Position numbers and translations under genes: made by a program. A stretch of 43,035 nucleotides of DNA from a virus (taxonomy: Duplodnaviria > Heunggongvirae > Uroviricota > Caudoviricetes), in the IMG/VR virus record IMGVR_UViG_2541047789_000007, positions 1 through 43,035 of that record. One strand, given 5' to 3'. Below, piece after piece: positions 18,638-37,195 of this stretch (its first letter is position 1; the number at the start of each line of letters is the position of its first letter). The notes beneath the pieces are model-generated. The model was not told the origin of the DNA and did not search any database. It saw nothing but the letters and a program-made list of their open reading frames with translations.

Positions 18638-19764
18638 CAATCAGGAAACACCGCCAGGGCGAAACGATCAATATAACTTTCACCTACAAAGGAGTTAAAT
18701 GTCGTGAGCCTCTTTCCAATCTGGAAGTAACACCAAAGAACATTAAATACGCCGAGCGCACACTCGGCGAAATCCATAATAAGATCGAAAGGGGAACATT
18801 CATTTATGCGGAATATTTTCCCCGTTCTGCTCGTTTGAAAATTTTTGGTAATGCGGCTGCAGGCAAAACGGTAAAAATGTACCTGGACGAATACCTTGAA
18901 ATCTGCGAAACGAGAAAACTTTCACCCTCTACGATTGGTGGTTATAAAAAATGCCGTAGTGCGTTAGCCTCACTCCACATTTGCTCTGCAAGTGAATTAA
19001 CACCAGCAATCCTGAAAGCGTGGATTCAAAGCCAGAAAACGACCTTAAAAACAATTCGCAACCAGTTATCTTTCCTGCGGTCAGCACTTGATGAAGCCGT
19101 AACCGATGGAGTACTTCAAATTAACCCCGTATCGTTGGTAACTGCTTCGCGCTACCAAAGTGGTAAGTCAGAAGCAGAAAGCAGCTACGTGGTTGATCCG
19201 CTATCACCAGCAGAAGTTGATGTATTACTAGCAGCAGCCGGAAACAAACAATGGGAGAATCTGTTCCGGTTCGCTATACATACAGGCCTGCGTAGTTCTG
19301 AATTATGTGCCCTTCGATGGCGTGATATCGACTTTGTTGGAAAAACAGCCCATGTTCAGAGCGCTAGTGTTGTCGGAGTTATCAAAGGAACAAAGACAAA
19401 AGCCGGTACCCGTAAAGTTGAACTGACTGAAGAAGCAATGTTGGCGCTGATAAATCAGAAGCCATTTACATTCATGAAGGATGCTACTGTCTTTGAAGAT
19501 CCAAAGACCAATAAGCCATGGGCAAGTGCTGATGCAATCAGAAAAAAAGCATGGGTGCCAACATTGCGAAAAGCAGGTATTCGTTACAGAAATCCATATC
19601 AAACTAGGCATACATTCGCCACCCGCCATATCAGCCGGGGAGCAAACCTGTTTTGGCTTGCAGCTCAAATGGGGCATAAAGGACCGGAGATGCTTTTCAG
19701 GCACTATGGCTCATATCTGAAGGAATATGATGGACAAACAAGCTTGAAGAAGATAACAATATAA
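18598..19764 (+). CDS. Tyrosine integrase (lambda-type)
   Basis: 388 aa; catalytic R...HxxR...Y (TGLRSSEL, RHTFATRHI, LFRHYGSY). Confidence 0.9.
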   Translation: MGQTKLLKLPRGVTIRKHRQGETINITFTYKGVKCREPLSNLEVTPKNIKYAERTLGEIHNKIERGTFIYAEYFPRSARLKIFGNAAAGKTVKMYLDEYLEICETRKLSPSTIGGYKKCRSALASLHICSASELTPAILKAWIQSQKTTLKTIRNQLSFLRSALDEAVTDGVLQINPVSLVTASRYQSGKSEAESSYVVDPLSPAEVDVLLAAAGNKQWENLFRFAIHTGLRSSELCALRWRDIDFVGKTAHVQSASVVGVIKGTKTKAGTRKVELTEEAMLALINQKPFTFMKDATVFEDPKTNKPWASADAIRKKAWVPTLRKAGIRYRNPYQTRHTFATRHISRGANLFWLAAQMGHKGPEMLFRHYGSYLKEYDGQTSLKKITI

Positions 19765-19778
19765 TCCAAGCATGAAAC

Positions 19779-19805
19779 TATTGGCCACAATTTGTGGCCA
19801 TTTTA
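19779..19805 (+). terminator. Hairpin terminator after int
   Basis: TGGCCAC-aattt-GTGGCCA followed by TTTTA. Confidence 0.45.
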
Positions 19806-19822
19806 CGGAGCAAGATACAAAC

Positions 19823-21556
19823 ATGGCAAATCAAATTACCAAACTAAAAAATATAAATGTTGTGAAGTTTCGCGGACTGAAAAATATAAACATCGAGTTT
19901 GGTTCTCGCCTAACTGTTATTTGTGGTAAAAATGGCACATCTAAATCCACAATTCTTGGCATTATCGCCCAAATATTTAGCTTTACAAAGGACTTTACCA
20001 AAAACCCTGAGACTGATTTAACACAATATAAAACATTAACAAATGGCAGCTTCAAGTCAGCTTTCAGCGAACATTTTAGGCTTTCAGAACAATTTGATGT
20101 TCCTGGTTCAATGGACGTCAAAATTAGTGTCTATGATGGTGCATCGAACAAACATCTTGAAAAACTAACATTAGGTTTATACAGCTACAGTGACAGAGAT
20201 AAATCAAGGCCTGTAGTCAGGGGAAATGATTCAATACCGGAAAAAAACCAAAGTAGAAACGTTACTCATCCTGTTATTTTTTTAAGCTTAGCACGACTTC
20301 TTCCTATTACATTAAGGACTAATTACTCAACACGGGATGTTCAGTACATCAATGAAAATTCTGATGAAATCAGAATGATGAGTAACCAACTCTTACTAAA
20401 AAACAATGGAAGCTCAGTAACAGCAACAAAAGGTACTATCGATTCAATGGTTGTCCATGGTGACAATTATGATCACCAATCAGTATCTGTTGGTGAAGAT
20501 AATGTTGGACAATTAATCCAAGCAATTTTTTCATTTAAAAGATTGAAGGAAACTTATTCTGATTATCATGGCGGAATATTGTTAATTGATGAAGCCGATG
20601 CAGGTCTTTTCCCTGCTGCACAGTTAGAGCTAATTAATATTCTAACTAAAGCAGCAAAACAATACGATCTGCAAATAATCATGACCTCGCACTCTCCATT
20701 AATAATAGAGGATATCTATAATCGTTCAAAACAAGATAGTGATAGCTTTAAAACAATATATCTTACAGACACATATGGAGATATTAAAACAAAGAATAAT
20801 CTTTCATGGACAGATATCCACGCTGATTTACATGTTGAAACTGTAAAAATTAATGATGACATTTGTCTTCCAAAAGCAAATGTATATTTTGAAGACAAAG
20901 AAGGTTTCGACTTTTTCAAACAATTGATAACAGATCGAAAAATAAATAAAATATTAAATCCATTAGGGAATATAAATATTAGCTGCTCTGCCATGCTTGA
21001 CTTAATGGCAAGAAAAATACCAGAATTTACAGCTAAAAGCTTGATCGTCTTAGACGGTGATGTTGTTCACGACAACAGTGCTAATGCAAAAAAAGCCAAA
21101 AAAGAAAAAAACTTATGTTTGCTTCCAAGCACCTTACCTCCAGACCAAATGATTTTTGAGTTTTTATATAATTTACCACCTGATGATGCATATTGGGAAA
21201 ATAAAAATAAATTTACAAAATCTGTTTTTATGAAAACAGCTAAAGACATAATTACAACGCTAAAGATTGGTAACGCTCCGATTGATTTAAAAATCCTTAT
21301 AGATAATTATAAAAAAGTTAACAAAAATCATGGCGGGAGAGTGAGAAAACTGTTTAAAGATTTTGCACATACGACTCAATTTCAGGACCAAGTCAAAGGA
21401 CGAGTTAAAGATAACCCATATCGATATTGGGTCGAGAAAAATCCTGTGCAATCGGATAGCTTCAAGAATGAACTAATAAAGAGTCTTAAAGTTATTATGA
21501 TAAGTGGACATGGTGTCGATTCTGCTACCATCTCATCATATCTGTCAGATAACTAA
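19823..21556 (+). CDS. OLD-like ABC-type ATPase with C-terminal TOPRIM-like region (candidate anti-phage nuclease)
   Basis: Walker A GKNGTSKST, Walker B LLIDEADAGL, TSHSP; C-terminal acidic motifs YFEDKEG and IVLDGD; AT-rich; start trimmed to MANQITK. Confidence 0.55.
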   Translation: MANQITKLKNINVVKFRGLKNINIEFGSRLTVICGKNGTSKSTILGIIAQIFSFTKDFTKNPETDLTQYKTLTNGSFKSAFSEHFRLSEQFDVPGSMDVKISVYDGASNKHLEKLTLGLYSYSDRDKSRPVVRGNDSIPEKNQSRNVTHPVIFLSLARLLPITLRTNYSTRDVQYINENSDEIRMMSNQLLLKNNGSSVTATKGTIDSMVVHGDNYDHQSVSVGEDNVGQLIQAIFSFKRLKETYSDYHGGILLIDEADAGLFPAAQLELINILTKAAKQYDLQIIMTSHSPLIIEDIYNRSKQDSDSFKTIYLTDTYGDIKTKNNLSWTDIHADLHVETVKINDDICLPKANVYFEDKEGFDFFKQLITDRKINKILNPLGNINISCSAMLDLMARKIPEFTAKSLIVLDGDVVHDNSANAKKAKKEKNLCLLPSTLPPDQMIFEFLYNLPPDDAYWENKNKFTKSVFMKTAKDIITTLKIGNAPIDLKILIDNYKKVNKNHGGRVRKLFKDFAHTTQFQDQVKGRVKDNPYRYWVEKNPVQSDSFKNELIKSLKVIMISGHGVDSATISSYLSDN

Positions 21557-21567
21557 TTGATTAAAAA

Positions 21568-21601
21568 GGGTTTTATGTGATGGCCATAAAGCCCTTTTTT
21601 T
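21568..21601 (+). terminator. Rho-independent terminator between OLD-like gene and Dam-like gene
   Basis: GGGTTTTATG-tgatggc-CATAAAGCCC followed by T7. Confidence 0.6.
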
Positions 21602-21635
21602 GATATACTTTAGATCTGACATTTAGAGGTATCAT

Positions 21636-22535
21636 ATGCGTTTTAACACCCCACTTCGCTATCCTGGCGGTAAAGGCAAGCTTGCAAATTTCATGCTTCG
21701 GATTATTGAAGAAAATAATCTTTCGCCTATACATTATGCCGAACCATATGCTGGGGGTGCTGGTTTAGCATTGAAACTGTTACATCTAAATGCAGCTGAA
21801 AAAATCATCCTTAATGATATTAATATTTCTGTTTATGCTTTTTGGCACAGTGTATTAAATCATGCAGATCAATTATGTTCTTTAATTGAAAGAACAGAAG
21901 TTACAATGGATGAATGGTTTAGGCAGAAAGATATAATTAATAATCCTAAAGACCATGATCTTTTAACAATTGGTTTCTCAACCTTTTTTCTCAATAGAAC
22001 AAATCGTTCTGGAATATTAAAAGGTGGTGTAATTGGCGGTAAAAATCAAGAAGGGAAATGGAAGCTTGACGCTCGCTATAATAAGAGTGATTTGATTTCT
22101 CGAATCCATAGAATATCAGAAAATCGTCACAGAATAGATTTATATAACATGGATGCAATTGATTTCATAAAAAAAATAGTTATTCAATTGCCACAAAACT
22201 CATTAACATATTTGGATCCACCTTATTACATAAAAGGTAAAGGCTTATATATCAACCATTATGATCATGATGATCATGTTAGGGTTGCAAAAGTCGTACA
22301 GAATAATATTAAAACGCCTTGGATTGTTTCTTACGATAACACTCCTGAGATCCAAGCTATGTATAAGACATCCTCATTAGTATATGGAATAAACTACAGT
22401 GCTCAAGATCGGTACAAAGGATCTGAGGTAATGTTCTTCAGTGAACGATTGAAAATCTTTAAAACAGATGATCCAACTAAGGTAAAAGCGCCTGTATTTA
22501 AAAGAGGATGTGTTGACGACCACATCCAGACATAA
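21636..22535 (+). CDS. Dam-family N6-adenine DNA methyltransferase (D12 class)
   Basis: Motifs RYPGGKGK, AEPYAGGAGL (FxGxG) and LDPPYY; 299 aa; AT-rich. Confidence 0.8.
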   Translation: MRFNTPLRYPGGKGKLANFMLRIIEENNLSPIHYAEPYAGGAGLALKLLHLNAAEKIILNDINISVYAFWHSVLNHADQLCSLIERTEVTMDEWFRQKDIINNPKDHDLLTIGFSTFFLNRTNRSGILKGGVIGGKNQEGKWKLDARYNKSDLISRIHRISENRHRIDLYNMDAIDFIKKIVIQLPQNSLTYLDPPYYIKGKGLYINHYDHDDHVRVAKVVQNNIKTPWIVSYDNTPEIQAMYKTSSLVYGINYSAQDRYKGSEVMFFSERLKIFKTDDPTKVKAPVFKRGCVDDHIQT

Positions 22536-22606: not shown

Positions 22607-22640
22607 ACGGACTCGGGTTCAACTCCCGCCAGCTCCACCA
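22607..22640 (+). other. ssrA: ssrA (tmRNA) 3'-end fragment ending CCA: att core shared by the two elements
   Basis: CGGACtCGGGTTCAACTCCCGCCAGCTCCACCA has a tRNA-like T-arm plus acceptor 3' strand and CCA and matches the recalled E. coli ssrA 3' end; upstream sequence is unrelated AT-rich prophage DNA. Confidence 0.6.
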
Positions 22641-24126: not shown

Positions 24127-24721
24127 ATCCAAATTCACATAAAAATTACTACAACTGACCATTTCTTTTTTTTCTGCTTACAGTGTCTTCGAAAGCCTGC
24201 TTCACACTTTCAACATTTGTAGACCACGATTTTAAAATAGTATCGGCTAAGGCTTCCTGACTGGTTGTTGGCATTCGATATTTTTTATCGTGCTTATTAA
24301 TATTCAATTTTGACTCCTCTATAAATAGCCACAAAGGTTCAATGAGAACATTCACCGCTGCAGCTTTACTTCTCCATCCTTCTTCAGGAGACAAATCATT
24401 TATAAGTTCCACCAGTTTTTCCTGAATAGGTCGATACATTTCAGATTTTTTTATCCCACCTTTCCTTCCTGATCTATTCCTGATAGATAAAAGTTTAGTT
24501 TGCTTATCTACTGAGATCTTATACCAAACCATCCCCATGCTTTTATCAAATAACTCAGATGCTTTTTTAAATGCTTCAAATGCAACATCCTCGTTGTCTG
24601 ATATAACTAATTCACCCCATTTATAGCACTTCAGTGCATACTTAAGGTGAAATTTAAAAAGCTCATCCATAGAGATATATTCAGGGATAATGACAGCAAC
24701 ATTATCGGTAATGACTCCAAC

Positions 24722-25225
24722 TTATTGATAGTGTTTTATGTTCAGATAATGCCCGATGACTTTGTCATGCAGCTCCACCGATTTTGAAAACGACAGCGAC
24801 TTCCGTCCCAGCCGTGCCAGGTGCTGCCTCAGATTCAGGTTATGCCGCTCAATTCGCTGCGTATATCGCTTGCTGATTACGTGCAGCTTTCCCTTCAGGC
24901 GGGATTCATACAGCGGCCAGCCATCCGTCATCCATATCACCACGTCAAAGGGTGACAGCAGGCTCATAAGACGCCCCAGCGTCGCCATAGTGCGTTCACC
25001 GAATACGTGCGCAACAACCGTCTTCCGGAGACTGTCATACGCGTAAAACAGCCAGCGCTGGCGCGATTTAGCCCCGACATAGCCCCACTGTTCGTCCATT
25101 TCCGCGCAGACGATGACGTCACTGCCCGGCTGTATGCGCGAGGTTACCGACTGCGGCCTGAGTTTTTTAAGTGACGTAAAATCGTGTTGAGGCCAACGCC
25201 CATAATGCGGGCAGTTGCCCGGCAT
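24722..25225 (-). CDS. insB: IS1 transposase InsB
   Basis: 167-aa ORF starting [16 protein letters not shown]. Confidence 0.9.
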
Positions 25226-25419
25226 CCAACGCCATTCATGGCCATATCAATGATTTTCTGGTGCGTACCGGGTTGAGAAGCGGTGTAAGTGAACTGCAGT
25301 TGCCATGTTTTACGGCAGTGAGAGCAGAGATAGCGCTGATGTCCGGCGGTGCTTTTGCCGTTACGCACCACCCCGTCAGTAGCTGAACAGGAGGGACAGC
25401 TGATAGAAACAGAAGCCAC
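25144..25419 (-). CDS. insA: IS1 InsA
   Basis: 91-aa ORF starting [32 protein letters not shown]. Confidence 0.9.
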
Positions 25420-25932
25420 TGGAGCACCTCAAAAACACCATCATACACTAAATCAGTAAGTTGGCAGCATCACCAACATTATCTCTCAGAAGTTCTGCCT
25501 CCAATGTACTCCAATAACGTTCAATAAGCTTAGCTAACTCGATGCTTTTCTCATTTGATGGAAAGTCCTTATGAGAGTCAGTGTACCTATGCTCCTTCAA
25601 ATAAGATGATGAATACAATAATATTCCGGGACCAAACTTCTTGGAGTTCCAGACCCGCTCTTTCATCATAGTCAACTCAGCCTGCATATCTGTATGCTTT
25701 TCATCCAGAACTTGGGCGTACATGCTCCATTCACAGTCCTTCATCTCACTGGAGAGAGCACTGCATTTTCGACTAATTTCTTCACTAAAAATTTTAAGAG
25801 AAAACATTTATCTTCACAATATCAACAAGTTAAACCCGTTAAAAATAAACCTTTGCTAGCCGTATTTTTTCGAAGAATCCTTGCAGCTATTCTTTGCTGG
25901 AACCAAACTGAGCTAACAAGAGGCAAACTAGT

Positions 25933-29059: not shown

Positions 29060-32000
29060 ATGAGTGTGTTGAGTTGGGCAATAGACCTATGCGGGAAGAT
29101 GGAAGCGTGGCTGGTTAAGCGCCAAGCAAAAGATCAACTACAGAGCGCAGAGCAGGGGTTGAGTCTGATGGAAGAAGAATTAGGTGATCGCTATGACACC
29201 TTAGCGCCGAAAACCATCAATGATGCCAGTATGCGAGAGTATTTCATTGCCCTGAAATACGCCTTGTCTCAGAAAGACGTAAGAAACATTGCCATTACAG
29301 GGAGCTATGGCGCAGGGAAAAGTACGGTTATTTCATCATTTATGAAATATCACTGCGATGATAAATACATCAATGTATCTCTTGCGGGATTCGATATGAC
29401 GGAAAATGAAACAACCGTCAGCCCAACTCACCAAGAGGTTGAACTCAGTATCCTGCAACAAATTCTTTATAAAGAGAATAGAGAGAAGCTTCCCGACTCA
29501 AGGATAGACAGAATAATCGACAGGGGCCCTCACTATGTCAGAGGAACTTATCGAGCCTTACTTAAAGTCATTACCCCCATCGCGGTAGCCGCATTTATTA
29601 TCTATTTCAAAACAATTGCAGAGTTTCTAAGCCTTCCGCCATCCTGGATCGAGGTATTTAATGCACACTACATCATAAAAGGCTTTATATTAGTTTCGCT
29701 GGCTTTTACCGCGCTGTACTTTATAACTGCCAGCGCATCTCGAATCGGTATTTTTGATAAGAAACTCAAGCTGAGCAAGATCGCGCTTTTAAGCGGGGAT
29801 GTTGAGGCAAGCGAGCAAGAGACACCATCCTTATTGAATAATTGCCTTGACGAGATCGTGTATTTTTTCACCAAGCTGAAATATAAGGTAGTCATCTTTG
29901 AAGATCTTGACAGGTTAGGGACGCCTGAGATTTTCGTTAAGTTGCGTGAAATTAACAAAATAGTTAACAATAATATTGTCGATGGCAGTCCGGTCAGGTT
30001 TGTTTATGCGGTAAGAGATGACCTATTCCTGGGCGCTGATGCCAGAACTAAATTCTTTGATTTCATTCTCCCTGTCATTCCATTTATGGACAGCAGAAAC
30101 GCGTTTACCTTATTAAAAAGGAAAATGTTACTCAATACGCATAACGATACATATTTGAAAGACATTTCTGTACATATAAATGATATGCGCAGCCTGCAGA
30201 ATTTGGTCAATGAGTACCATGTATTCAGTAATATCGTTGATAACGGCAACGACAAAATCAAACTGTTATCGCTGGTATTTTATAAAAATATCTATGCATT
30301 AGACTACTACCTTACCGATAAGAAAACAGGGGTTTTATATTCATTTATTCGCGACTATCGCACCCGAAAACTTCACCATAATCATTTTGACTCTCTGGAA
30401 ACAAAACTGGATCTTTTACAGGCCGAAATAGAACATCTTAATTATGAGCCTATGTATGACCATAGGGGAATTAGAGAGGAAATAGTTTGTCGATATATTC
30501 CTAAGATACTCTGGGATGGCGTTCATTTTGGTACGGGAAATGGATACAGTAATTTTTATCCTTTAGGAACTTTGGCTTTAATTGATGATGAAAATAGTTT
30601 TTTGGAGTTTTTATCGCAAAAGGAAAACTTATATATAGGCTACTTTGTTAGTCATCAGGGGCATTCACTTTCACTTTTTGATAGAGCATTAAGAGAACAA
30701 CTAAAAGAAGAATACCTGAAACGAAAAACGAAAATGGGTAAAGATAAAAACTCGGCTTTTAGTGAACTGCAAATAAAAATAAAGAAAATTAAAGAGTCAA
30801 TAAAATTAAAAAACACCCTTTCGCTGCGAGAACTTACGCTAATAATCGGGCGTGAGAAATTTGCAGAGATTGCGCAGGGGTATCTTGAGGCGATGGAGGG
30901 GCATGACTTCGTTTCTAAGCAGCAGCTCCATGCTTTGTGTGCTGATATGCGCAATGGCGGTTTAGACGCCTTATATCTGCTGCTGTCCGATGGTCTGGTG
31001 ATGCAAGACTTCATGGCCTACCGCTCTATTTTCCATGAAGGATCGATGACCGTAAATGATAACGACTTTTTGAAAGCCGTCGGTCAGGATCTGAGCTACG
31101 CAACCTCAAACGGTGAATATTTTATCGATGACGAGAACAGAGTCATCAGCGAATTGGTTGAACATAACCGTATTTATGCCGATGGCGCGCTTCATCATCA
31201 ACTGGTGACTCATTTGATTGATAACGCGGACGAACATCTGGCGGGCATGTTCGCTTCGCTATTCAGTCAGTCTGATGAACACATCCTTGCTGTTTTCTCT
31301 GAGCTTTATACACGATTTGGCAAACCCGAAACCTTCGATAAGTTAATCGTTACCGCGCTGCAAAAAAATGGTTATCTTGACAGAATGGTTGCCGTTCTCG
31401 CGGGACAGCTGGGTGAAAAATTCACCAACGATATTGCTATCAGCGTGATAGCCTGCGTATCACCTGCACATGCGCAAGATAAACTGCAATACCGCCAGCT
31501 TATTCATTCGCTGGGGTGCCGTATCATCTCTCAGCTCACCGAAGAAAATCAGGAAGCGTTTATGCGTCATGTACAACAGGCGGATGCACGCTATGACGAG
31601 CTGTTCGAACCAATAACGCCAACGGAGCGGTATTGCCTACAGTTTACTGCACAAAACAGCCTTTATCAGTTAACTCGACACAATGTTGGCATTGCCGTTT
31701 CATGTCTTATTGACAACATAACGCCTGAAGAGGCGGAAAGGAAACCCTGGACACTCGCCTATGAACATGAACTCAGCACGGTTTCTGACTACTTCAGTCA
31801 AAACATTGATATATTCGTCAGGGATGTGTTTATCTACTCCGCTGAGGATGGCGACTGTATCCGCTACGTTCTGACCCGTACCTCTCTAAGCGACGATTCC
31901 AAAGGCGATGTCGTCAGAAACATGACCTTCTCGTTTTCCGACCTGTCCGGGATATTGGCTAAAGCAGTATTTACCGAAGACCAGCTAACGATTTCCTATC

Positions 32001-32899
32001 ACGACCTGTTTTACCGATATGACCGCGTCGCACCGGGATGGGGGGCGCTGATAGACTATATCTGTGAAGATTGCGACATGGAGATACTGACGGCTTATGT
32101 GACAAAGCATGCGCCTGTATTGGGGCAATCATCCCCGGAAGTTTATGATGGCGACCGCTATGACCTGCTGTATATGAAAATTATCTGCAATGATGACCTA
32201 GAAGAACAGGTTTATCAGAGCCTAGTTGCACCGATTGAGATTAACATGCGGGAAATTGATGAGCGGCTTAGCGCGCGTCATTTCTGCACCCTGGTTGCCA
32301 TGCAGAAGCTGCCTCTCGACGCGGATGTGTATGAAAAAATTGCGGCTCAATATGCGGTTCAAGATGAAAATATAAGTGATGCCTTCGTCTATTGGTTCAG
32401 CCAGTACAAAAGTGAGTTTTTGACGCAGCCCGAATTCTATCTAAGAAAAGAAAAAGACGCGCGCTTCTTTAATGTCATGCTCACAAAAATCATAACCTAC
32501 GCGCACTTTACCGTGCAAGAGAGAGCGGACCTGGTGTCGCTATTCATTGATTATTTCATTGCGTCTGATATCGCTGACCTTAATTACCCTCATGATGTCC
32601 TGCTGCAGGTGTTTAACAGTACCAATAATGAAGAATTCAAGGTCATGCTGTTTACGCGATTTATTGTGACAGGCCTGAATAAACATCAACTGGCCGGGCT
32701 ATGTCATCAACTGGGCGAAGACGAATTGAGTAATGTATTCATCAATCGAACCCAGGCAACAATTGCTGTTATAAACAGGGAACGCGTGATATCAATTCTT
32801 GAACATCTGCAAGCAGTACGCATCATAAGAGGTTTTCAGGAGCGTGAAAGTGGGAAAATCTCCGTCTTTATCGAACCCGATCTGGAGGATAAAGATTAG
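29060..32899 (+). CDS. Giant KAP/YobI-type P-loop NTPase with transmembrane insertion (1279 aa)
   Basis: Walker A ITGSYGAGKST, then two hydrophobic helices, then Walker B KVVIFEDLDRLG; about 900-aa C-terminal region without recognisable motifs. Confidence 0.6.
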   Translation: MSVLSWAIDLCGKMEAWLVKRQAKDQLQSAEQGLSLMEEELGDRYDTLAPKTINDASMREYFIALKYALSQKDVRNIAITGSYGAGKSTVISSFMKYHCDDKYINVSLAGFDMTENETTVSPTHQEVELSILQQILYKENREKLPDSRIDRIIDRGPHYVRGTYRALLKVITPIAVAAFIIYFKTIAEFLSLPPSWIEVFNAHYIIKGFILVSLAFTALYFITASASRIGIFDKKLKLSKIALLSGDVEASEQETPSLLNNCLDEIVYFFTKLKYKVVIFEDLDRLGTPEIFVKLREINKIVNNNIVDGSPVRFVYAVRDDLFLGADARTKFFDFILPVIPFMDSRNAFTLLKRKMLLNTHNDTYLKDISVHINDMRSLQNLVNEYHVFSNIVDNGNDKIKLLSLVFYKNIYALDYYLTDKKTGVLYSFIRDYRTRKLHHNHFDSLETKLDLLQAEIEHLNYEPMYDHRGIREEIVCRYIPKILWDGVHFGTGNGYSNFYPLGTLALIDDENSFLEFLSQKENLYIGYFVSHQGHSLSLFDRALREQLKEEYLKRKTKMGKDKNSAFSELQIKIKKIKESIKLKNTLSLRELTLIIGREKFAEIAQGYLEAMEGHDFVSKQQLHALCADMRNGGLDALYLLLSDGLVMQDFMAYRSIFHEGSMTVNDNDFLKAVGQDLSYATSNGEYFIDDENRVISELVEHNRIYADGALHHQLVTHLIDNADEHLAGMFASLFSQSDEHILAVFSELYTRFGKPETFDKLIVTALQKNGYLDRMVAVLAGQLGEKFTNDIAISVIACVSPAHAQDKLQYRQLIHSLGCRIISQLTEENQEAFMRHVQQADARYDELFEPITPTERYCLQFTAQNSLYQLTRHNVGIAVSCLIDNITPEEAERKPWTLAYEHELSTVSDYFSQNIDIFVRDVFIYSAEDGDCIRYVLTRTSLSDDSKGDVVRNMTFSFSDLSGILAKAVFTEDQLTISYHDLFYRYDRVAPGWGALIDYICEDCDMEILTAYVTKHAPVLGQSSPEVYDGDRYDLLYMKIICNDDLEEQVYQSLVAPIEINMREIDERLSARHFCTLVAMQKLPLDADVYEKIAAQYAVQDENISDAFVYWFSQYKSEFLTQPEFYLRKEKDARFFNVMLTKIITYAHFTVQERADLVSLFIDYFIASDIADLNYPHDVLLQVFNSTNNEEFKVMLFTRFIVTGLNKHQLAGLCHQLGEDELSNVFINRTQATIAVINRERVISILEHLQAVRIIRGFQERESGKISVFIEPDLEDKD

Positions 32900-33369: not shown

Positions 33370-34470
33370 TTATTTGATGTTGGACTCAAAAATCTCAACG
33401 AGTTCTTTGACTTTTTTCATGCAATCAATATTAACACACCTATATTTATCATTATATTTTATAAGTGACACTAAATATGAGCGATAACCTTTTAATTTAT
33501 TCTGTAATTGATCATCAGCATACTTAGAGTAAAAATCAAATTTATTCCCATACCTTAGGGTAAACTTCCTATGGTTTAAATAGAATACGCTCTCCATTAT
33601 ATACATTGGGGATTTTTGTTTTTTGAGCAATGCGGAAACTTTTTTCAACGGTTTAAGTTTTTTATCAGATAGCCTGATGTTACCAACAGGCTTCTCTTTG
33701 TACACATGAAAAAAGTCTTTCTTTCTTTTCCTGTTCTGTACTACATAACCGTTAAGCGATATAGTGTTCTCAGTCGCTCTCCTTTTCTTTTTTTTCAACT
33801 TGAGAGAAAGTATAGAGACGAAGATAGAAATATCCTTTTCAAATTGCTCAGAATGCAGGTACTTACTGTTATCACAAGAAAAAAGCATATCATCTGCATA
33901 ACGTGAGTAGATAATCCCTTTATCTTCACACAATTTTTGAATAAGAATATCTACTCTTCTGAATATTATGTTTGATATTACAGGGGAGGATGAAAATCCA
34001 ATAGGTAACACTTCTTTCCCACGAAAGTCTTTGTCAATATAAGTGTCACTAACCTTGTGAGTAACAGAAATATATGCAATATCTAGAGCTGAGTATTTAT
34101 TTCCATTCTTTTCATTGTTGAAGTGCTGAGCGAGTAGGCTTTTTACTTCATGCGTAGGTATTGAATGGAAGAATTTTTTGATATCCAATCGTAGGAAGTA
34201 ATATCCTTGGATATGGGGCCTTAGAAAGTCGTAATAAGATTTACCTTGAACAAAGCCGCATGCGGATGAGTTAATGGGACTTTTATCTAGAACAAACTTA
34301 GTTATTCTATCATTTATACGCTTGTGTTCAGAGTCTCTAGAAATTTCAAAAAAGTTGTCGCAACCAACTTTAAACTCTCTGACGGCAGGAGTGAAATCAT
34401 TTAGAAGATCTTCATTGCCTTTAAGAATCGCTTTCTTAAAAAAGTCATCGCTAATATTATTTTTTATCAT
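33370..34470 (-). CDS. Reverse transcriptase (retron-like / defence-associated RT)
   Basis: RT motifs: motif A LRLDIKKFFHSI, motif B LPIGFSSSPVISNIIF, motif C YADD; 366 aa; AT-rich. Confidence 0.8.
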   Translation of the reverse strand: MIKNNISDDFFKKAILKGNEDLLNDFTPAVREFKVGCDNFFEISRDSEHKRINDRITKFVLDKSPINSSACGFVQGKSYYDFLRPHIQGYYFLRLDIKKFFHSIPTHEVKSLLAQHFNNEKNGNKYSALDIAYISVTHKVSDTYIDKDFRGKEVLPIGFSSSPVISNIIFRRVDILIQKLCEDKGIIYSRYADDMLFSCDNSKYLHSEQFEKDISIFVSILSLKLKKKKRRATENTISLNGYVVQNRKRKKDFFHVYKEKPVGNIRLSDKKLKPLKKVSALLKKQKSPMYIMESVFYLNHRKFTLRYGNKFDFYSKYADDQLQNKLKGYRSYLVSLIKYNDKYRCVNIDCMKKVKELVEIFESNIK

Positions 34471-34473
34471 AGA

Positions 34474-34673
34474 GCTTCAACCCGATACAAAAGAACACCA
34501 TTACACCGTAGGTGTGTACTTCGACGCATACTAATCAGAGTGACTAGTTTAGCAGTCATTAGGACTATGCCCAAAGCTAAAAGAAGCTGGACTCCCTCAA
34601 GCAAAGAGCGGGAGAGGCAAGCTCTCAGATACTTGTCGAAACTCATATCTCCCCTCTACTATCGGGTTGAAGC
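34474..34673 (-). ncRNA. Candidate retron msr-msd non-coding RNA bracketed by 14-bp inverted repeats (a1/a2-like)
   Basis: Perfect inverted repeat GCTTCAACCCGATA (34474-34487) / TATCGGGTTGAAGC (34660-34673) enclosing about 170 nt with internal hairpins; lies between OLD gene stop and RT start. Confidence 0.4.
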
Positions 34674-36760
34674 ATACGAATGATATCATAAAACTCGGGG
34701 AAATAAACTTTAAATACTGTCCCAAATGGTTGATTTTTAGCTAAAGACTCTTTTTCAACGTATCCGACGGCATAATTTAGGAAGCTTGTAGTCCATCCAT
34801 CGGTTTTATCAAGGTATTTGTTGTGTACAGTGTTCTCTTCTAATAATTTCATTAGCATTTTTGCATGCTTGGAAGTGTATCGCAACTTGCCGCTTACCTT
34901 TCTCTTATTATTTAAAGTTTGTTTGTATGTTTCAACATTGAAGTGGCTATAGTCAGTTAATGCCATTGACTTTCCATTAAAAATGACTCTAATGTAATCA
35001 ATGAGCATATCCTCTGTAACATACTTGCTTCGTTTTATACGCTTCAATGTAGAATCAAAATTAGAATTATGTTCACTGTCTAACCATCCATATACAATTT
35101 TTGAGCTATGTTTCTGGATTAAACAACCTTCTAATGTTGTTCTATTTAGATAAATATTCTGATCAAGCAACCTGCTTTTAACAGCAGTAAATACCGACTC
35201 AAAGTCAGACTCATCTAGAAAAGTTTGAGTTGTATTATTTACTTTTACTTCTTTATTTATAACGGATAACAACGTCTCAATATTTTCTCGTTTTGTCTTG
35301 TACTTCTTGCTAAAACCCAATTTGTATTTATTAAGCTCTGATTTTAAAGTATCTGGTTTAAAGTTAAAATAGCTACCGTTTTTTTCTAGTTTTATAGATA
35401 AACTACGAGGCTCACCTTTAATTGATATTGCTTTGTCTGCATCGAATAAGAATAAGTATGGTATAGTAGAGTTTGAGTATGATGGATTAACTCGCTCACC
35501 AACGACATTGCTACTACATTTATAAACATCTATATTTCTTAAATGAGGGAAATGTTCAGTCATCTTCATGTTTCCAAAAGCTTCCAACTCACTTTCACCC
35601 TCTACAAATAGGATAAAGTCGCTAAAAAACAATCTTGCTTCATTGTCACTAAAAATATTTATAAAGCTCTCGTTGTCATAAGTGGAATTTAATATGCTAA
35701 TCGTAGTTCTAGCATCAACTTTCTTCTGAAAACAATAAACACGTTGTTTTTGCCTGAACTTTTTAATTATCTCTTTTACTATATTCGGCGAATGAGTTGT
35801 TATAAATACTTTAGGCCTAGTAACTCGATCATCTTTTTTTTCATTATAATTGTAACTAGTAAATATATCTTGGACTAGAACCTCGTTCATTTTAGGGTGT
35901 AGACCTAGCTCTGGTTCATCAATAAAAACAAATGGTGTTATATATTCTCTTCTTGAAATTGTAATTAGTATCCTAAGAAAGGTTTTTATGAAATGAAATG
36001 AATTTGTTCCATCTGAGTGAAACTTTAAATCATTTTCGTCTATCTCAAACCGATAACCTTTTAATCCAGCCTTAATATAGCTCAACACCTTTTCTTTCTG
36101 AGAACTTGGCTTCGTAGATATCGTTCTATTTAAGTCTGAAATATAATTCCTATAAGAATTATCACCACTCGAATTAATTGAATTATCAAAAAAATCAATT
36201 ACAGATTGGTCATCAATTTTAGACAGATTGAAAGACTTCACTCTTGATATAAGATCCCACAAACTGTCCCATTCATGTAAATCCATATGTCTAGGTTCAA
36301 CATGGAAAAATGGAAATAGATAAAGAATAAGGTTTAAAGTTTGTTTGTCTTTAGTTGACCACTTAACTTTACCATCGCTGTATATGTTCAGTGTCAAAGT
36401 ATAAGTGGTGTAATCATTATCGTAGCGCGTTAATGCAAATATGCTTCGTTTATGGAGAGGAACCAATTTTCGGATGATAAAATCAAAATACTTATTTTTA
36501 GGTTGATTCCTGGCTATCCTATAAATTCTGGTCATATCATAAGTTACTGATATAGAACCTTTATACGAATAATTAGAGTTTAGCTTTGGCGGTAACTCTT
36601 CTTTGCCTTCTAGTTTATTGTAGAAGAATTTAAGAACTTTAAGTAAGTTAGACTTTCCAACGTTATTGCGACCGACAATGCAGTTTAAGTCGTTTAAGTT
36701 ATCAACATTTAGCTCATCGAATGATAACAAGTTGGTGATTTTTATAGCCTGTACAGTCAT
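34643..36760 (-). CDS. OLD-family ATPase/TOPRIM nuclease (705 aa)
   Basis: Walker A GRNNVGKSN, Walker B FVFIDEPELGLHP, TTHSP, TOPRIM LFVEGESELEAF and LFLFDADKA; AT-rich. Confidence 0.8.
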   Translation of the reverse strand: MTVQAIKITNLLSFDELNVDNLNDLNCIVGRNNVGKSNLLKVLKFFYNKLEGKEELPPKLNSNYSYKGSISVTYDMTRIYRIARNQPKNKYFDFIIRKLVPLHKRSIFALTRYDNDYTTYTLTLNIYSDGKVKWSTKDKQTLNLILYLFPFFHVEPRHMDLHEWDSLWDLISRVKSFNLSKIDDQSVIDFFDNSINSSGDNSYRNYISDLNRTISTKPSSQKEKVLSYIKAGLKGYRFEIDENDLKFHSDGTNSFHFIKTFLRILITISRREYITPFVFIDEPELGLHPKMNEVLVQDIFTSYNYNEKKDDRVTRPKVFITTHSPNIVKEIIKKFRQKQRVYCFQKKVDARTTISILNSTYDNESFINIFSDNEARLFFSDFILFVEGESELEAFGNMKMTEHFPHLRNIDVYKCSSNVVGERVNPSYSNSTIPYLFLFDADKAISIKGEPRSLSIKLEKNGSYFNFKPDTLKSELNKYKLGFSKKYKTKRENIETLLSVINKEVKVNNTTQTFLDESDFESVFTAVKSRLLDQNIYLNRTTLEGCLIQKHSSKIVYGWLDSEHNSNFDSTLKRIKRSKYVTEDMLIDYIRVIFNGKSMALTDYSHFNVETYKQTLNNKRKVSGKLRYTSKHAKMLMKLLEENTVHNKYLDKTDGWTTSFLNYAVGYVEKESLAKNQPFGTVFKVYFPEFYDIIRMLQPDSRGEI

Positions 36761-37143
36761 AGTGTGCCCTAGATTTTTTTCTCATTATATCAGTTGCTTA
36801 TTTAGCTTACTACTCCGATAAGATTTTTACTCAGGAAAATCAATAGGTTTCTAATACTAGCAGTCGTCCGGTCTTTGCTTCACTGAGTTTCGAATCCTTG
36901 GATATTCAACGCATCGGCAATTCCTCTCTTAACGTGATATATGCTTCTAGCCGGTGTACGCGCAACTTCGGATAACTTGAGATAAGGCAAACTAGCCTCG
37001 ATAAGATGTGAACGGGATTTTTCTCTGGATCATAACGGGGCATAAATGAGTTAGCACCGATATCCGCTTCTGGCACAGAACGGCCTATCAGCATTCTAAA
37101 AATATTCAGATATATATCATTCAACTGAACATACCCCATTATC

Positions 37144-37172
37144 GGCAGAACCTCATGGTTCTGCCGTTTTTT
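37144..37172 (+). terminator. Strong hairpin terminator immediately upstream of yfjP-like
   Basis: GGCAGAACC-tcat-GGTTCTGCC followed by GTTTTTT. Confidence 0.6.
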
Positions 37173-37195
37173 GTTTTCATTTTAGAGGAGCAGTG

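What the first reader, a model, noticed from the sequence alone, without database searches (positions are those of the whole stretch)
33370..36760. Retron-like module: OLD-family ATPase/TOPRIM gene, inverted-repeat-bracketed non-coding RNA candidate, reverse transcriptase
Two co-oriented minus-strand genes in a sharply AT-rich block. A 705-aa protein carries ABC-ATPase motifs (GRNNVGKSN, FVFIDEPELGLHP, TTHSP) and TOPRIM motifs (LFVEGESELEAF, LFLFDADKA), which defines the OLD family. A 366-aa reverse transcriptase follows (LDIKKFF, PIGFSSSP, YADD). Between them sit about 170 nt bracketed by a perfect 14-bp inverted repeat (GCTTCAACCCGATA at 34474-34487 and its complement at 34660-34673), with the downstream copy ending 3 nt before the RT start codon. 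That is the geometry of retron a1/a2 repeats around msr-msd. The order effector - ncRNA - RT and the lack of an obvious VTG motif after YADD make this a possibly divergent or undescribed retron-type defence system; retrons with OLD-family effectors are known, but this exact arrangement is not one I can place.
Basis: partly seen in the sequence, partly recalled or inferred. Interest (0 to 1): 0.85.

Follow-up and report, generated by a model that had tools for sequence, protein, structure and literature searches.

The report
Retron-Eco8-family (type I-B2) retron
This is an intact copy of a known kind of bacterial anti-phage system, a Retron-Eco8-type retron with an OLD nuclease, a structured non-coding RNA and a reverse transcriptase; it is a distant relative of the studied example, not a new type.

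Summary
Two intact minus-strand genes (a 705-aa OLD ATPase/TOPRIM protein and a 366-aa RT) lie 172 nt apart, and a perfect 14-bp inverted repeat spans that gap.

The "undescribed arrangement" reading does not hold. Effector, then ncRNA, then RT is the published layout of type I-B2 retrons (class 3A OLD), whose prototype is Retron-Eco8.
- The effector scores 827 bits on NCBIfam "retron Eco8 family effector endonuclease" (cutoff 250).
- Both proteins match PADLOC I-B models and the solved Eco8 chains at about 40% identity, with all catalytic residues kept.
- The "missing VTG" is LNG here and ING in Eco8.
- RefSeq already names the effector in 14 of 5426 complete E. coli genomes.

In 65 related loci from Proteobacteria, Campylobacterota and Firmicutes the gene order is the same. 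The repeat, flanked by a branching G and an opposing G, covaries strongly.

The one local peculiarity is an extra hairpin of about 41 nt in the msr part. The predicted msd template (about 73 nt) matches Eco8's 75 nt.

The likely mechanism, by homology, is an msDNA-RT-OLD complex held inactive until a phage single-strand-binding protein binds the msDNA. Low interest: a new member of a known kind.

The parts
34643..36760 (-). OLD-family effector, 705 aa. Walker A is K36 and Walker B is D281/E282. TOPRIM motif IV is EGESE (387-391) and motif V is DAD (440-442).
   Evidence: ORF. PADLOC ATPase-Toprim_I-B, 2.6e-226. NCBIfam NF038234 retron_eff_Eco8, 827 bits against a cutoff of 250. PDB Retron Eco8 OLD nuclease, 4e-113, 40.3% identity over 546 aligned residues.
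34685..34714 (-). Candidate ncRNA promoter inside the OLD coding region: TTTAAA, 18-nt spacer, TATGAT. It would start transcription a few nt before the 5' repeat arm.
   Evidence: Consensus scan; the scan as a whole is not above chance. A TAnnnT hexamer lies 9-20 nt upstream of the arm in 19 of 21 relatives, but the sequence is also coding, so this is only a candidate.
34474..34673 (-). Retron ncRNA (msr-msd), 200 nt from the outer end of one repeat arm to the outer end of the other.
   Evidence: MFE -76.4 kcal/mol, z = -4.9 against shuffles. The region is 78-87% conserved across seven loci whose RTs are only 48-100% identical. The 59-aa ORF overlapping it is not conserved.
34660..34673 (-). 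5' arm of the a1/a2 inverted repeat (GCTTCAACCCGATA). It lies within the last codons of the OLD gene.
   Evidence: Stem covariation across 15 distinct arm pairs: 85% paired against 39-47% when slid, 12 of 14 pairs with compensatory changes, 0/500 shuffles as high.
34659..34659 (-). Predicted branching (priming) G, immediately 3' of the 5' arm. It is equivalent to rG18 of Eco8.
   Evidence: A G follows the 5' arm in the window, and G-flanked repeats occur in 49 of 65 related loci. The GRYA-G motif is present in 21 of 22 Proteobacteria/Campylobacterota loci. The role is inferred from Eco8 (PMC12887533).
34627..34650 (-). msr stem-loop a (AGAUAU...GUAUCU).
   Evidence: RNAalifold on 7 loci. An equivalent hairpin appears at the same position when relatives are folded one by one.
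34612..34626 (-). msr stem-loop b (GAGAG-CUUGC-CUCUC).
   Evidence: 98.8% of cells paired against 41-60% when slid; all 5 pairs show compensatory changes; 0/500 shuffles as high. There are 14 different stem sequences among 17 relatives.
34569..34609 (-). Extra msr hairpin (about 41 nt), specific to this clade. It is inserted between stem-loop b and the TAGYCC motif. It is 12 nt in two relatives and absent from most of the family.
   Evidence: Alignment. Four sequence-divergent versions (window, L004, L001, L005) each fold into one hairpin at the same site, z from -2.1 to -3.8. Placement in msr is inferred.
34561..34567 (-). Conserved TAGTCCT motif. Its UCCU (34561-34564) is predicted to pair with GGGG at 34651-34654, closing the msr hairpins.
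   Evidence: RNAalifold pairs columns 29-32 with 120-123. The motif is found in 19 of 20 distinct relatives.
34488..34560 (-). Predicted msd template, about 73 nt. The msDNA would carry the + strand sequence starting with C at 34488; 34488 is the 'opposing G' next to the 3' arm.
   Evidence: The distance from TAGYCC to the opposing G is 68-80 nt in 17 of 19 relatives, while total length varies from 116 to 176 nt. Eco8 msd is 75 nt (PMC12887533, PMC13402713). The ends are inferred, not measured.
34474..34487 (-). 3' arm of the inverted repeat (TATCGGGTTGAAGC). It ends 3 nt before the RT start codon.
33370..34470 (-). Retron reverse transcriptase, 366 aa. Key residues: D96, F101, PIG 156-158, YADD 191-194, LNG 239-241, F40.
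   Evidence: PADLOC RT_I-B, 7.2e-93, 309 bits; the next best family scores 111 bits. PDB Retron Eco8 RT, 1.6e-57, 39.6% identity. Group II intron RT scores 38.8 bits against a cutoff of 300, and Drt2 scores 35.8 against 390.

Best explanation
This is a complete type I-B2 retron of the Retron-Eco8 family: an OLD effector, then the msr-msd ncRNA, then the RT. It sits in an integrative island at ssrA in E. coli.

Shown here: the gene content, the order, the catalytic motifs, and a conserved, covarying ncRNA with G-flanked inverted repeats.

Inferred by homology to Eco8:
- The ncRNA is transcribed from within the 3' end of the OLD gene.
- The RT primes on the 2'-OH of the G at 34659 and copies about 73 nt of template (34560 to 34488) into msDNA.
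[quoted passage not shown] The local difference from Eco8 is an msr RNA about 40 nt longer, carrying a third hairpin, and a diverged effector loop (FDYY in Eco8, LNKY here).
For: - PADLOC RT_I-B 7e-93 and ATPase-Toprim_I-B 2.6e-226.
- NCBIfam retron_eff_Eco8 equivalog, 827 bits against a cutoff of 250.
- Solved Eco8 RT 1.6e-57 and Eco8 OLD 4e-113.
- About 40% identity to Eco8, with K36, D/E Walker B, both TOPRIM glutamates, DxD, YADD, D96, F101 and the terminating F40 all conserved.
- OLD lies upstream on the same strand in 65 of 79 related loci, with a 50-347 nt gap (116-347 nt in all but one).
- This layout and the EGxxE/DxD motifs define I-B2 / class 3A (PMC7736814, PMC10568477).
- The repeat is perfect and non-random, and G-flanked repeats occur in 49 of 65 loci.
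- Covariation supports the repeat stem and msr stem-loop b.
- The msd-template length is constant across the family and matches Eco8's 75 nt.
- The mechanism comes from PMC12887533, PMC13402713 and 10.1101/2020.06.21.156273.
Against: - Nothing was tested experimentally for this locus; msDNA, defence and trigger are all inferred from a relative only about 40% identical.
- The unconstrained MFE prefers a different msr pairing (-75.2 against -69.6 kcal/mol for the Eco8-like model).
- The predicted msd DNA does not fold better than shuffles (z = -1.06).
- The FDYY loop, which contacts msDNA on SSB binding in Eco8, is LNKY here, so the trigger or its read-out may differ.
- Rfam gave no retron match.
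- The promoter is only a consensus match.
- I could not obtain the Eco8 ncRNA sequence, so element-by-element correspondence rests on published coordinates.
Confidence: 0.9

Rival explanations
1. It has the same Eco8-type architecture, but this clade senses a different phage cue. Alternatively it reads the cue through the extra msr hairpin rather than through SSB binding to the msd.
For: Identity to Eco8 is only about 40%. The FDYY loop is replaced by LNKY and H95 by F. A clade-specific 41-nt msr hairpin is present.
Against: The msd-template length and the conserved flanking motifs are unchanged across the family. F92 and the catalytic and termination residues are conserved. In Eco8, msr stem-loop a also projects outward without protein contacts (PMC12887533), so an added RNA hairpin need not be functional.
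Confidence: 0.2
2. It is a decayed or silent remnant: the genes are present but no longer form a working defence system.
For: There is no expression or phenotype data. The locus lies in an island that has taken an IS1 insertion elsewhere. It is rare in E. coli: 14 of 5426 complete genomes.
Against: Both ORFs are full length compared with relatives (705 aa and 366 aa). All catalytic motifs are intact. The ncRNA is 100% identical to that of five other E. coli genomes and 99.5% identical to that of five more. The module is 99.5-100% identical across all ten.
Confidence: 0.05
3. The RT belongs to a non-retron class (group II intron, DGR, Abi or DRT) and the inverted repeat is an unrelated hairpin or terminator.
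For: The literal VTG and NAXXH signatures of retron RTs are absent. Rfam gave no retron hit.
Against: The top 25 PADLOC hits are all retron RT families, led by RT_I-B at 309 bits. Group II RT and Drt2 score far below their cutoffs. The closest solved structures are all retron RTs. The repeat carries the G flanks and covaries across the family. Eco8 also lacks VTG, having ING instead.
Confidence: 0.01

Closest known systems
Retron-Eco8 (E. coli 200499; type I-B2; OLD class 3A; PDB 9lbq, 9p4j and others)
   Same: The gene order is OLD-ncRNA-RT. The effector has the same family HMM. The Walker A/B, EGxxE, DxD, YADD, PxG and xNG motifs are shared. The ncRNA has G-flanked inverted repeats and two msr stem-loops followed by TAGYCC. 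The msd template is about 73-75 nt.
   Different: Protein identity is only about 40%. The msr is predicted to be about 105 nt rather than 64 nt, because of a third hairpin (34569-34609). The effector FDYY loop is LNKY and H95 is F. The RT has LNG where Eco8 has ING, and PIG where Eco8 has PMG. This locus is not experimentally characterised.
Type I-B1 retrons (OLD class 3B)
   Same: A retron RT plus an ATPase-TOPRIM (OLD) effector.
   Different: In I-B1 the effector lies downstream of the RT, the TOPRIM motif IV is EDxxL, and the RT belongs to clade 1 (PMC7736814). Here the effector is upstream with EGxxE, and the second PADLOC RT_I-B model scores only 81 bits against 309 for the first.
Type I-A retrons (Retron-Eco7/Ec78, Retron-Eco4/Ec83; PtuA-PtuB effectors)
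   Same: A retron with an ABC-type ATPase effector component.
   Different: ATPase and HNH nuclease are separate genes and there is no TOPRIM domain. The solved Ec78 and Ec83 RTs match the window RT only weakly (E-values of about 1e-9 to 1e-12).
Retron-Eco2 (Ec67; type I-C)
   Same: A retron that uses a TOPRIM nuclease.
   Different: TOPRIM is fused to the RT C-terminus and there is no ATPase. The NCBIfam Ec67 model scores 62 bits against a cutoff of 450.
Stand-alone OLD nucleases: P2 Old (class 1) and Gabija GajA (class 2)
   Same: An ABC ATPase plus a TOPRIM domain architecture. GajA, Old and AriA models hit at 1e-12 to 1e-21.
   Different: They have no RT or ncRNA partner and their scores are far weaker than for the retron effector model.

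Membership tests
Retron (general) | The RT belongs to the retron RT lineage rather than group II intron, DGR, Abi or DRT. | tested here: met
   PADLOC RT_I-B at 309 bits, and all top 25 hits are retron RT families. The nearest solved chains are all retron RTs. Group II RT and Drt2 are far below their cutoffs.
Retron (general) | An ncRNA next to the RT, bounded by a1/a2 inverted repeats. | tested here: met
   A perfect 14-bp repeat spans 200 nt and ends 3 nt before the RT ATG. The stem covaries in relatives.
Retron (general) | A conserved branching G at the inner end of the 5' arm and an opposing G at the inner end of the 3' arm. | tested here: met
   G34659 and G34488. The same G flanks occur in 49 of 65 related loci and in 21 of 22 motif-anchored Proteobacteria/Campylobacterota loci.
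Retron (general) | Literal NAXXH (region X) and VTG (region Y) motifs in the RT. | tested here: not met
   The VTG position reads LNG (239-241), with the G kept. Eco8 has ING (PMC13402713). By my reading of the alignment, region X reads ISVTH here and NSVGY in Eco8. The deviation is shared by the validated family prototype, so it does not argue against retron membership.
Retron (general) | Production of branched msDNA. | not testable with these tools
   This needs msDNA extraction and sequencing.
Type I-B2 retron / Retron-Eco8 family | The effector is a single ATPase+TOPRIM (OLD) protein with motif IV EGxxE and motif V DxD. | tested here: met
   EGESE at 387-391 and DAD at 440-442. The criteria are from PMC7736814, Table 1.
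Type I-B2 retron / Retron-Eco8 family | The effector passes the curated family model. | tested here: met
   NCBIfam NF038234 (equivalog), 827.2 bits against a cutoff of 250. PADLOC PDLC02915, 751 bits.
Type I-B2 retron / Retron-Eco8 family | The effector gene lies upstream of the ncRNA and RT on the same strand (class 3A). | tested here: met
   The same order is seen in 65 of 79 related loci. The definition is in PMC10568477.
Type I-B2 retron / Retron-Eco8 family | Eco8-type ncRNA: two msr stem-loops after the branching G, then an msd template of about 75 nt. | tested here: met
   Stem-loops a and b are present and covary. The template is about 73 nt. There is one extra hairpin in the msr.
Type I-B2 retron / Retron-Eco8 family | A 4:4:4 RT-msDNA-OLD complex activated by phage SSB; abortive infection. 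| not testable with these tools
   This is known only for Eco8 (PMC12887533, PMC13402713).
Type I-B1 retron | The effector lies downstream of the RT; TOPRIM motif IV is EDxxL. | tested here: not met
   The effector is upstream and motif IV is EGESE.

The most novel reading that the evidence does not exclude
This Eco8 subclade is found in E. coli, Citrobacter, Vibrio, Shewanella, Pseudoalteromonas and Kosakonia. It carries a size-variable third msr hairpin and a rewritten effector loop (LNKY in place of FDYY). It may use these to sense a phage cue other than SSB, or to tune activation. That would make the msr RNA, and not only the msd DNA, a sensor surface.
Probability: 0.12. Interest if true: 0.4.

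Novelty: new member of a known kind. Interest (0 to 1): 0.15.

Why it matters
It matters little for discovery. The system type, its layout and its mechanism are published, and public annotation already names the effector.

It has modest practical value:
- It is a second, 40%-identical Eco8-family retron with a fully delimited ncRNA.
- It shows a natural insertion-tolerant site in the msr (0, 12 or about 40 nt across relatives). That could inform retron engineering and comparative work on how msDNA gates OLD nucleases.
- It adds to a defence island at ssrA, with Tmn next door.

Tried and rejected
- Rfam scan of 32.5-37.5 kb at E<=10: no retron family, only three chance-level hits.
- I looked for the Eco8 ncRNA sequence for a direct alignment. 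The supplements of PMC12887533 and PMC13402713 hold none. Sensitive blastn of the ncRNA against 5426 E. coli genomes found only this type and the AH65 type. The exact Eco8 RT was not among the 120 protein hits. Correspondence with Eco8 therefore rests on published coordinates.
- My first guess was that the extra 32-34 nt lay in the msd, giving an msd of about 117 nt. I rejected it because the distance from TAGYCC to the opposing G is constant at about 74 nt across the family.
- My initial estimate of about 50% identity to Eco8 was corrected to about 40% by counting the alignments.
- An automatic hairpin picker mislabelled stem-loops and crashed. I replaced it with a motif-anchored search and a MAFFT alignment with pair counting.
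- The 59-aa ORF at 34467-34646(-), which overlaps the ncRNA, is rejected as a gene. It is truncated to 41 and 30 aa in close relatives and absent from two others.
- Cognate versus non-cognate arm pairing gave only a modest contrast, 7.9 against 5.9 of 10, because all arms are pyrimidine/purine-biased and several have bulges.
Full report
**Observation**

The two minus-strand ORFs are exactly as described: the RT at 33370-34470 (366 aa) and the ATPase/TOPRIM protein at 34643-36760 (705 aa). All the quoted peptide motifs are present.

The 14-bp repeat GCTTCAACCCGATA / TATCGGGTTGAAGC lies at 34474-34487 and 34660-34673 and is perfect. The two copies are the only matches in the window even with one mismatch allowed, and none appeared in 100 shuffles.

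The block is AT-rich, with GC 0.31-0.36 against about 0.45-0.55 in the flanks.

One correction is needed. The upstream arm is not in the spacer. It sits in the last 31 nt of the OLD ORF, where the repeat arm and the bases just after it encode ...LQPDSRGEI-stop.

**What the proteins are**

- *PADLOC.* The RT matches RT_I-B (7.2e-93, 309 bits; the next family scores 111 bits). The large protein matches ATPase-Toprim_I-B (2.6e-226).
- *NCBIfam.* The large protein falls in the equivalog "retron Eco8 family effector endonuclease" at 827 bits, against a curated cutoff of 250. The RT scores far below cutoff for group II intron RT (38.8 against 300) and Drt2 (35.8 against 390).
- *Solved structures.* The best hits are Retron Eco8 RT (1.6e-57) and Retron Eco8 OLD nuclease (4e-113).
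- *Identity.* Counting those alignments gives 39.6% identity for the RT and 40.3% for OLD residues 1-561.
- *Residues tested by mutation in Eco8.* Nearly all are conserved here. In OLD: K36, D281/E282, E387/E391 and D440/D442. In the RT: F40 (the terminating F51 of Eco8), D96, F101 and YADD 191-194, with the central residue of PMG changed (PIG 156-158) (PMC12887533, PMC13402713).
- *The "missing VTG".* The position reads LNG here and ING in Eco8.
- *Differences.* The effector FDYY loop of Eco8 is LNKY here, and H95 is F.

**Arrangement**

The Eco8 expression construct is OLD-ncRNA-RT (PMC12887533).

A scan of one genome per species returned 79 loci encoding related RTs. In 65 of them an OLD homologue lies upstream on the same strand, with a gap of 50-347 nt (116-347 nt in all but one). 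They span Gammaproteobacteria, Campylobacterota and Firmicutes.

RefSeq already labels this effector gene "retron Eco8 family effector endonuclease". Ten complete E. coli genomes carry the module at 99.5-100% identity, including the probiotic strain A0 34/86. Four more carry a diverged version (AH65 type). That is 14 of 5426 genomes.

**The ncRNA**

The 206-nt stretch that includes the 200-nt repeat-to-repeat segment folds at -76.4 kcal/mol (z = -4.9). A G follows the 5' arm (34659) and a G precedes the 3' arm (34488). These correspond to the branching and opposing guanosines described for Eco8.

- *Repeats in relatives.* A naive search for the best gapless repeat between OLD and RT found G-flanked arms in 49 of 65 loci, with entirely different arm sequences of up to 18 bp. 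The remaining Proteobacteria/Campylobacterota loci (all but L024, where no 5' anchor was found) have the same GRYA-G / G-TRYC anchors with bulged stems.
- *Repeat-stem covariation.* On 15 distinct arm pairs anchored by motif only, 85% of cells pair against 39-47% when the partner is slid. Twelve of 14 pairs show compensatory changes, and 0 of 500 shuffles reach the observed values.
- *msr hairpins.* Downstream of the branching G, the family shows GGG, then hairpin a, then hairpin b (a 5-bp stem closing a CYWGN loop), then TAGYCC.
- *Hairpin b covariation.* It is 98.8% paired across 17 sequences, all five pairs covary, and 0 of 500 shuffles are as high.
- *Positions in the window.* Hairpin a is at 34627-34650 and hairpin b at 34612-34626.

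**Local peculiarity**

In most relatives TAGYCC follows hairpin b directly. In this clade an insertion sits between them:
- about 41 nt here and in the Shewanella, Vibrio, Citrobacter and AH65 loci;
- 12 nt (a UUCG or UUUU mini-hairpin) in the Pseudoalteromonas and Kosakonia loci.

Sequence-divergent versions each fold into a single hairpin at that site, with z from -2.1 to -3.8. L008, a locus outside this clade, has an independent 27-nt hairpin insertion at nearly the same site (z = -4.1).

The distance from TAGYCC to the opposing G stays at 68-80 nt in 17 of 19 sequences, while total length ranges from 116 to 176 nt. I therefore place the insertion in the msr. This predicts an msd template of about 73 nt (34488-34560), close to Eco8's 75 nt, and an msr of about 105 nt rather than 64 nt.

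These end points are inferred, with three caveats:
- I could not obtain the Eco8 ncRNA sequence.
- The Eco8-like fold is 5.6 kcal/mol above the free MFE.
- The predicted msd DNA is not unusually stable (z = -1.06).

**Other elements**

- The 59-aa ORF over the ncRNA is not conserved.
- A -10-like hexamer lies 9-20 nt upstream of the 5' arm in 19 of 21 relatives, and a TTTAAA-18-TATGAT match lies at 34714-34685. The region is coding, and the scan as a whole is not above chance.

**Mechanism (inferred from Eco8)**

1. The RT primes on G34659 and makes msDNA.
2. RT, msDNA and OLD form an autoinhibited assembly.
3. Phage SSB binding to the msd opens the nuclease, and DNA degradation aborts the infection (PMC12887533, PMC13402713, 10.1101/2020.06.21.156273).

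Identity as a I-B2 retron is very secure. The identity of the trigger is a guess at about even odds, given 40% identity and the changed FDYY loop.

**Context**

Window 22608-43035 is 99.99% identical to the ssrA-linked island of A0 34/86, apart from an IS1 insertion. The convergent neighbour at 29060-32899 is a Tmn/YobI-type ATPase. The first 22.6 kb is a different, prophage-like element carrying further defence-like genes.

**Verdict**

The novelty claim is not supported. This is an uncharacterised member of a known and already annotated family, with a minor ncRNA variation.

Noticed in passing
window 29060-32899 (+): The 1279-aa protein convergent with the RT is a Tmn-type defence ATPase (PADLOC Tmn 2.3e-175; Pfam YobI-ATPase 1.7e-98). 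RefSeq calls it 'hypothetical protein'. Retron and Tmn sit side by side in the island.
   Followed up: partly
window 19772-22535 (+): A 594-aa AAA_15/AAA_21 ATPase is followed by a D12-class adenine methyltransferase that matches PADLOC PD-Lambda-5_B (5.3e-124). The pair lies just after a phage-type integrase (18598-19764). It is possibly a PD-Lambda-5-like defence pair at the end of a prophage. No PD-Lambda-5_A hit appeared among the top ATPase matches shown.
   Followed up: partly
window 22608-22640 and 1-22607: Only the last 33 nt of ssrA are present, as judged by the match to A0 34/86, and ARAGORN finds no tmRNA in the window. Upstream lies a different, prophage-like element (CI/S24 repressor at 14115-14807, DUF2303) instead of smpB-ssrA. 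This suggests two mobile elements in tandem at the ssrA attachment site.
   Followed up: partly
window 24706-25474: About 0.77 kb is absent from strain A0 34/86 and encodes an IS1 transposase (24722-25225, Pfam DDE_Tnp_IS1 5.9e-78). It appears to truncate the island gene that is 882 bp long in A0 34/86 (ORF 24149-24670 here).
   Followed up: partly
window 34660-34673 and 34643-34675: The 5' repeat arm, the branching G and the first msr bases double as the last ten codons of the OLD gene (LQPDSRGEI). The arm is identical in seven loci from six genera whose RTs are only 48-100% identical, so it seems to be under dual coding and RNA constraint.
   Followed up: partly
window 34471-34487: The 3' repeat arm ends 3 nt before the RT start codon (3-7 nt in most Proteobacteria/Campylobacterota relatives). 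The RT ribosome-binding region would therefore be buried in the a1/a2 stem, which might limit RT translation from the folded ncRNA.
   Followed up: no
window 37143-37175 (+): A strong 10-bp GC-rich hairpin followed by a T-run lies between the region upstream of OLD and the GTPase gene starting at 37193. The weak Rfam 'sbrA' hit (E = 0.2) is just this terminator-like shape.
   Followed up: no
L008 3697-3867 and other related loci: An independent 27-nt hairpin insertion occurs at nearly the same msr site in the Cedecea locus (within CTA^GCC). This position therefore seems to tolerate insertions repeatedly across the family.
   Followed up: partly
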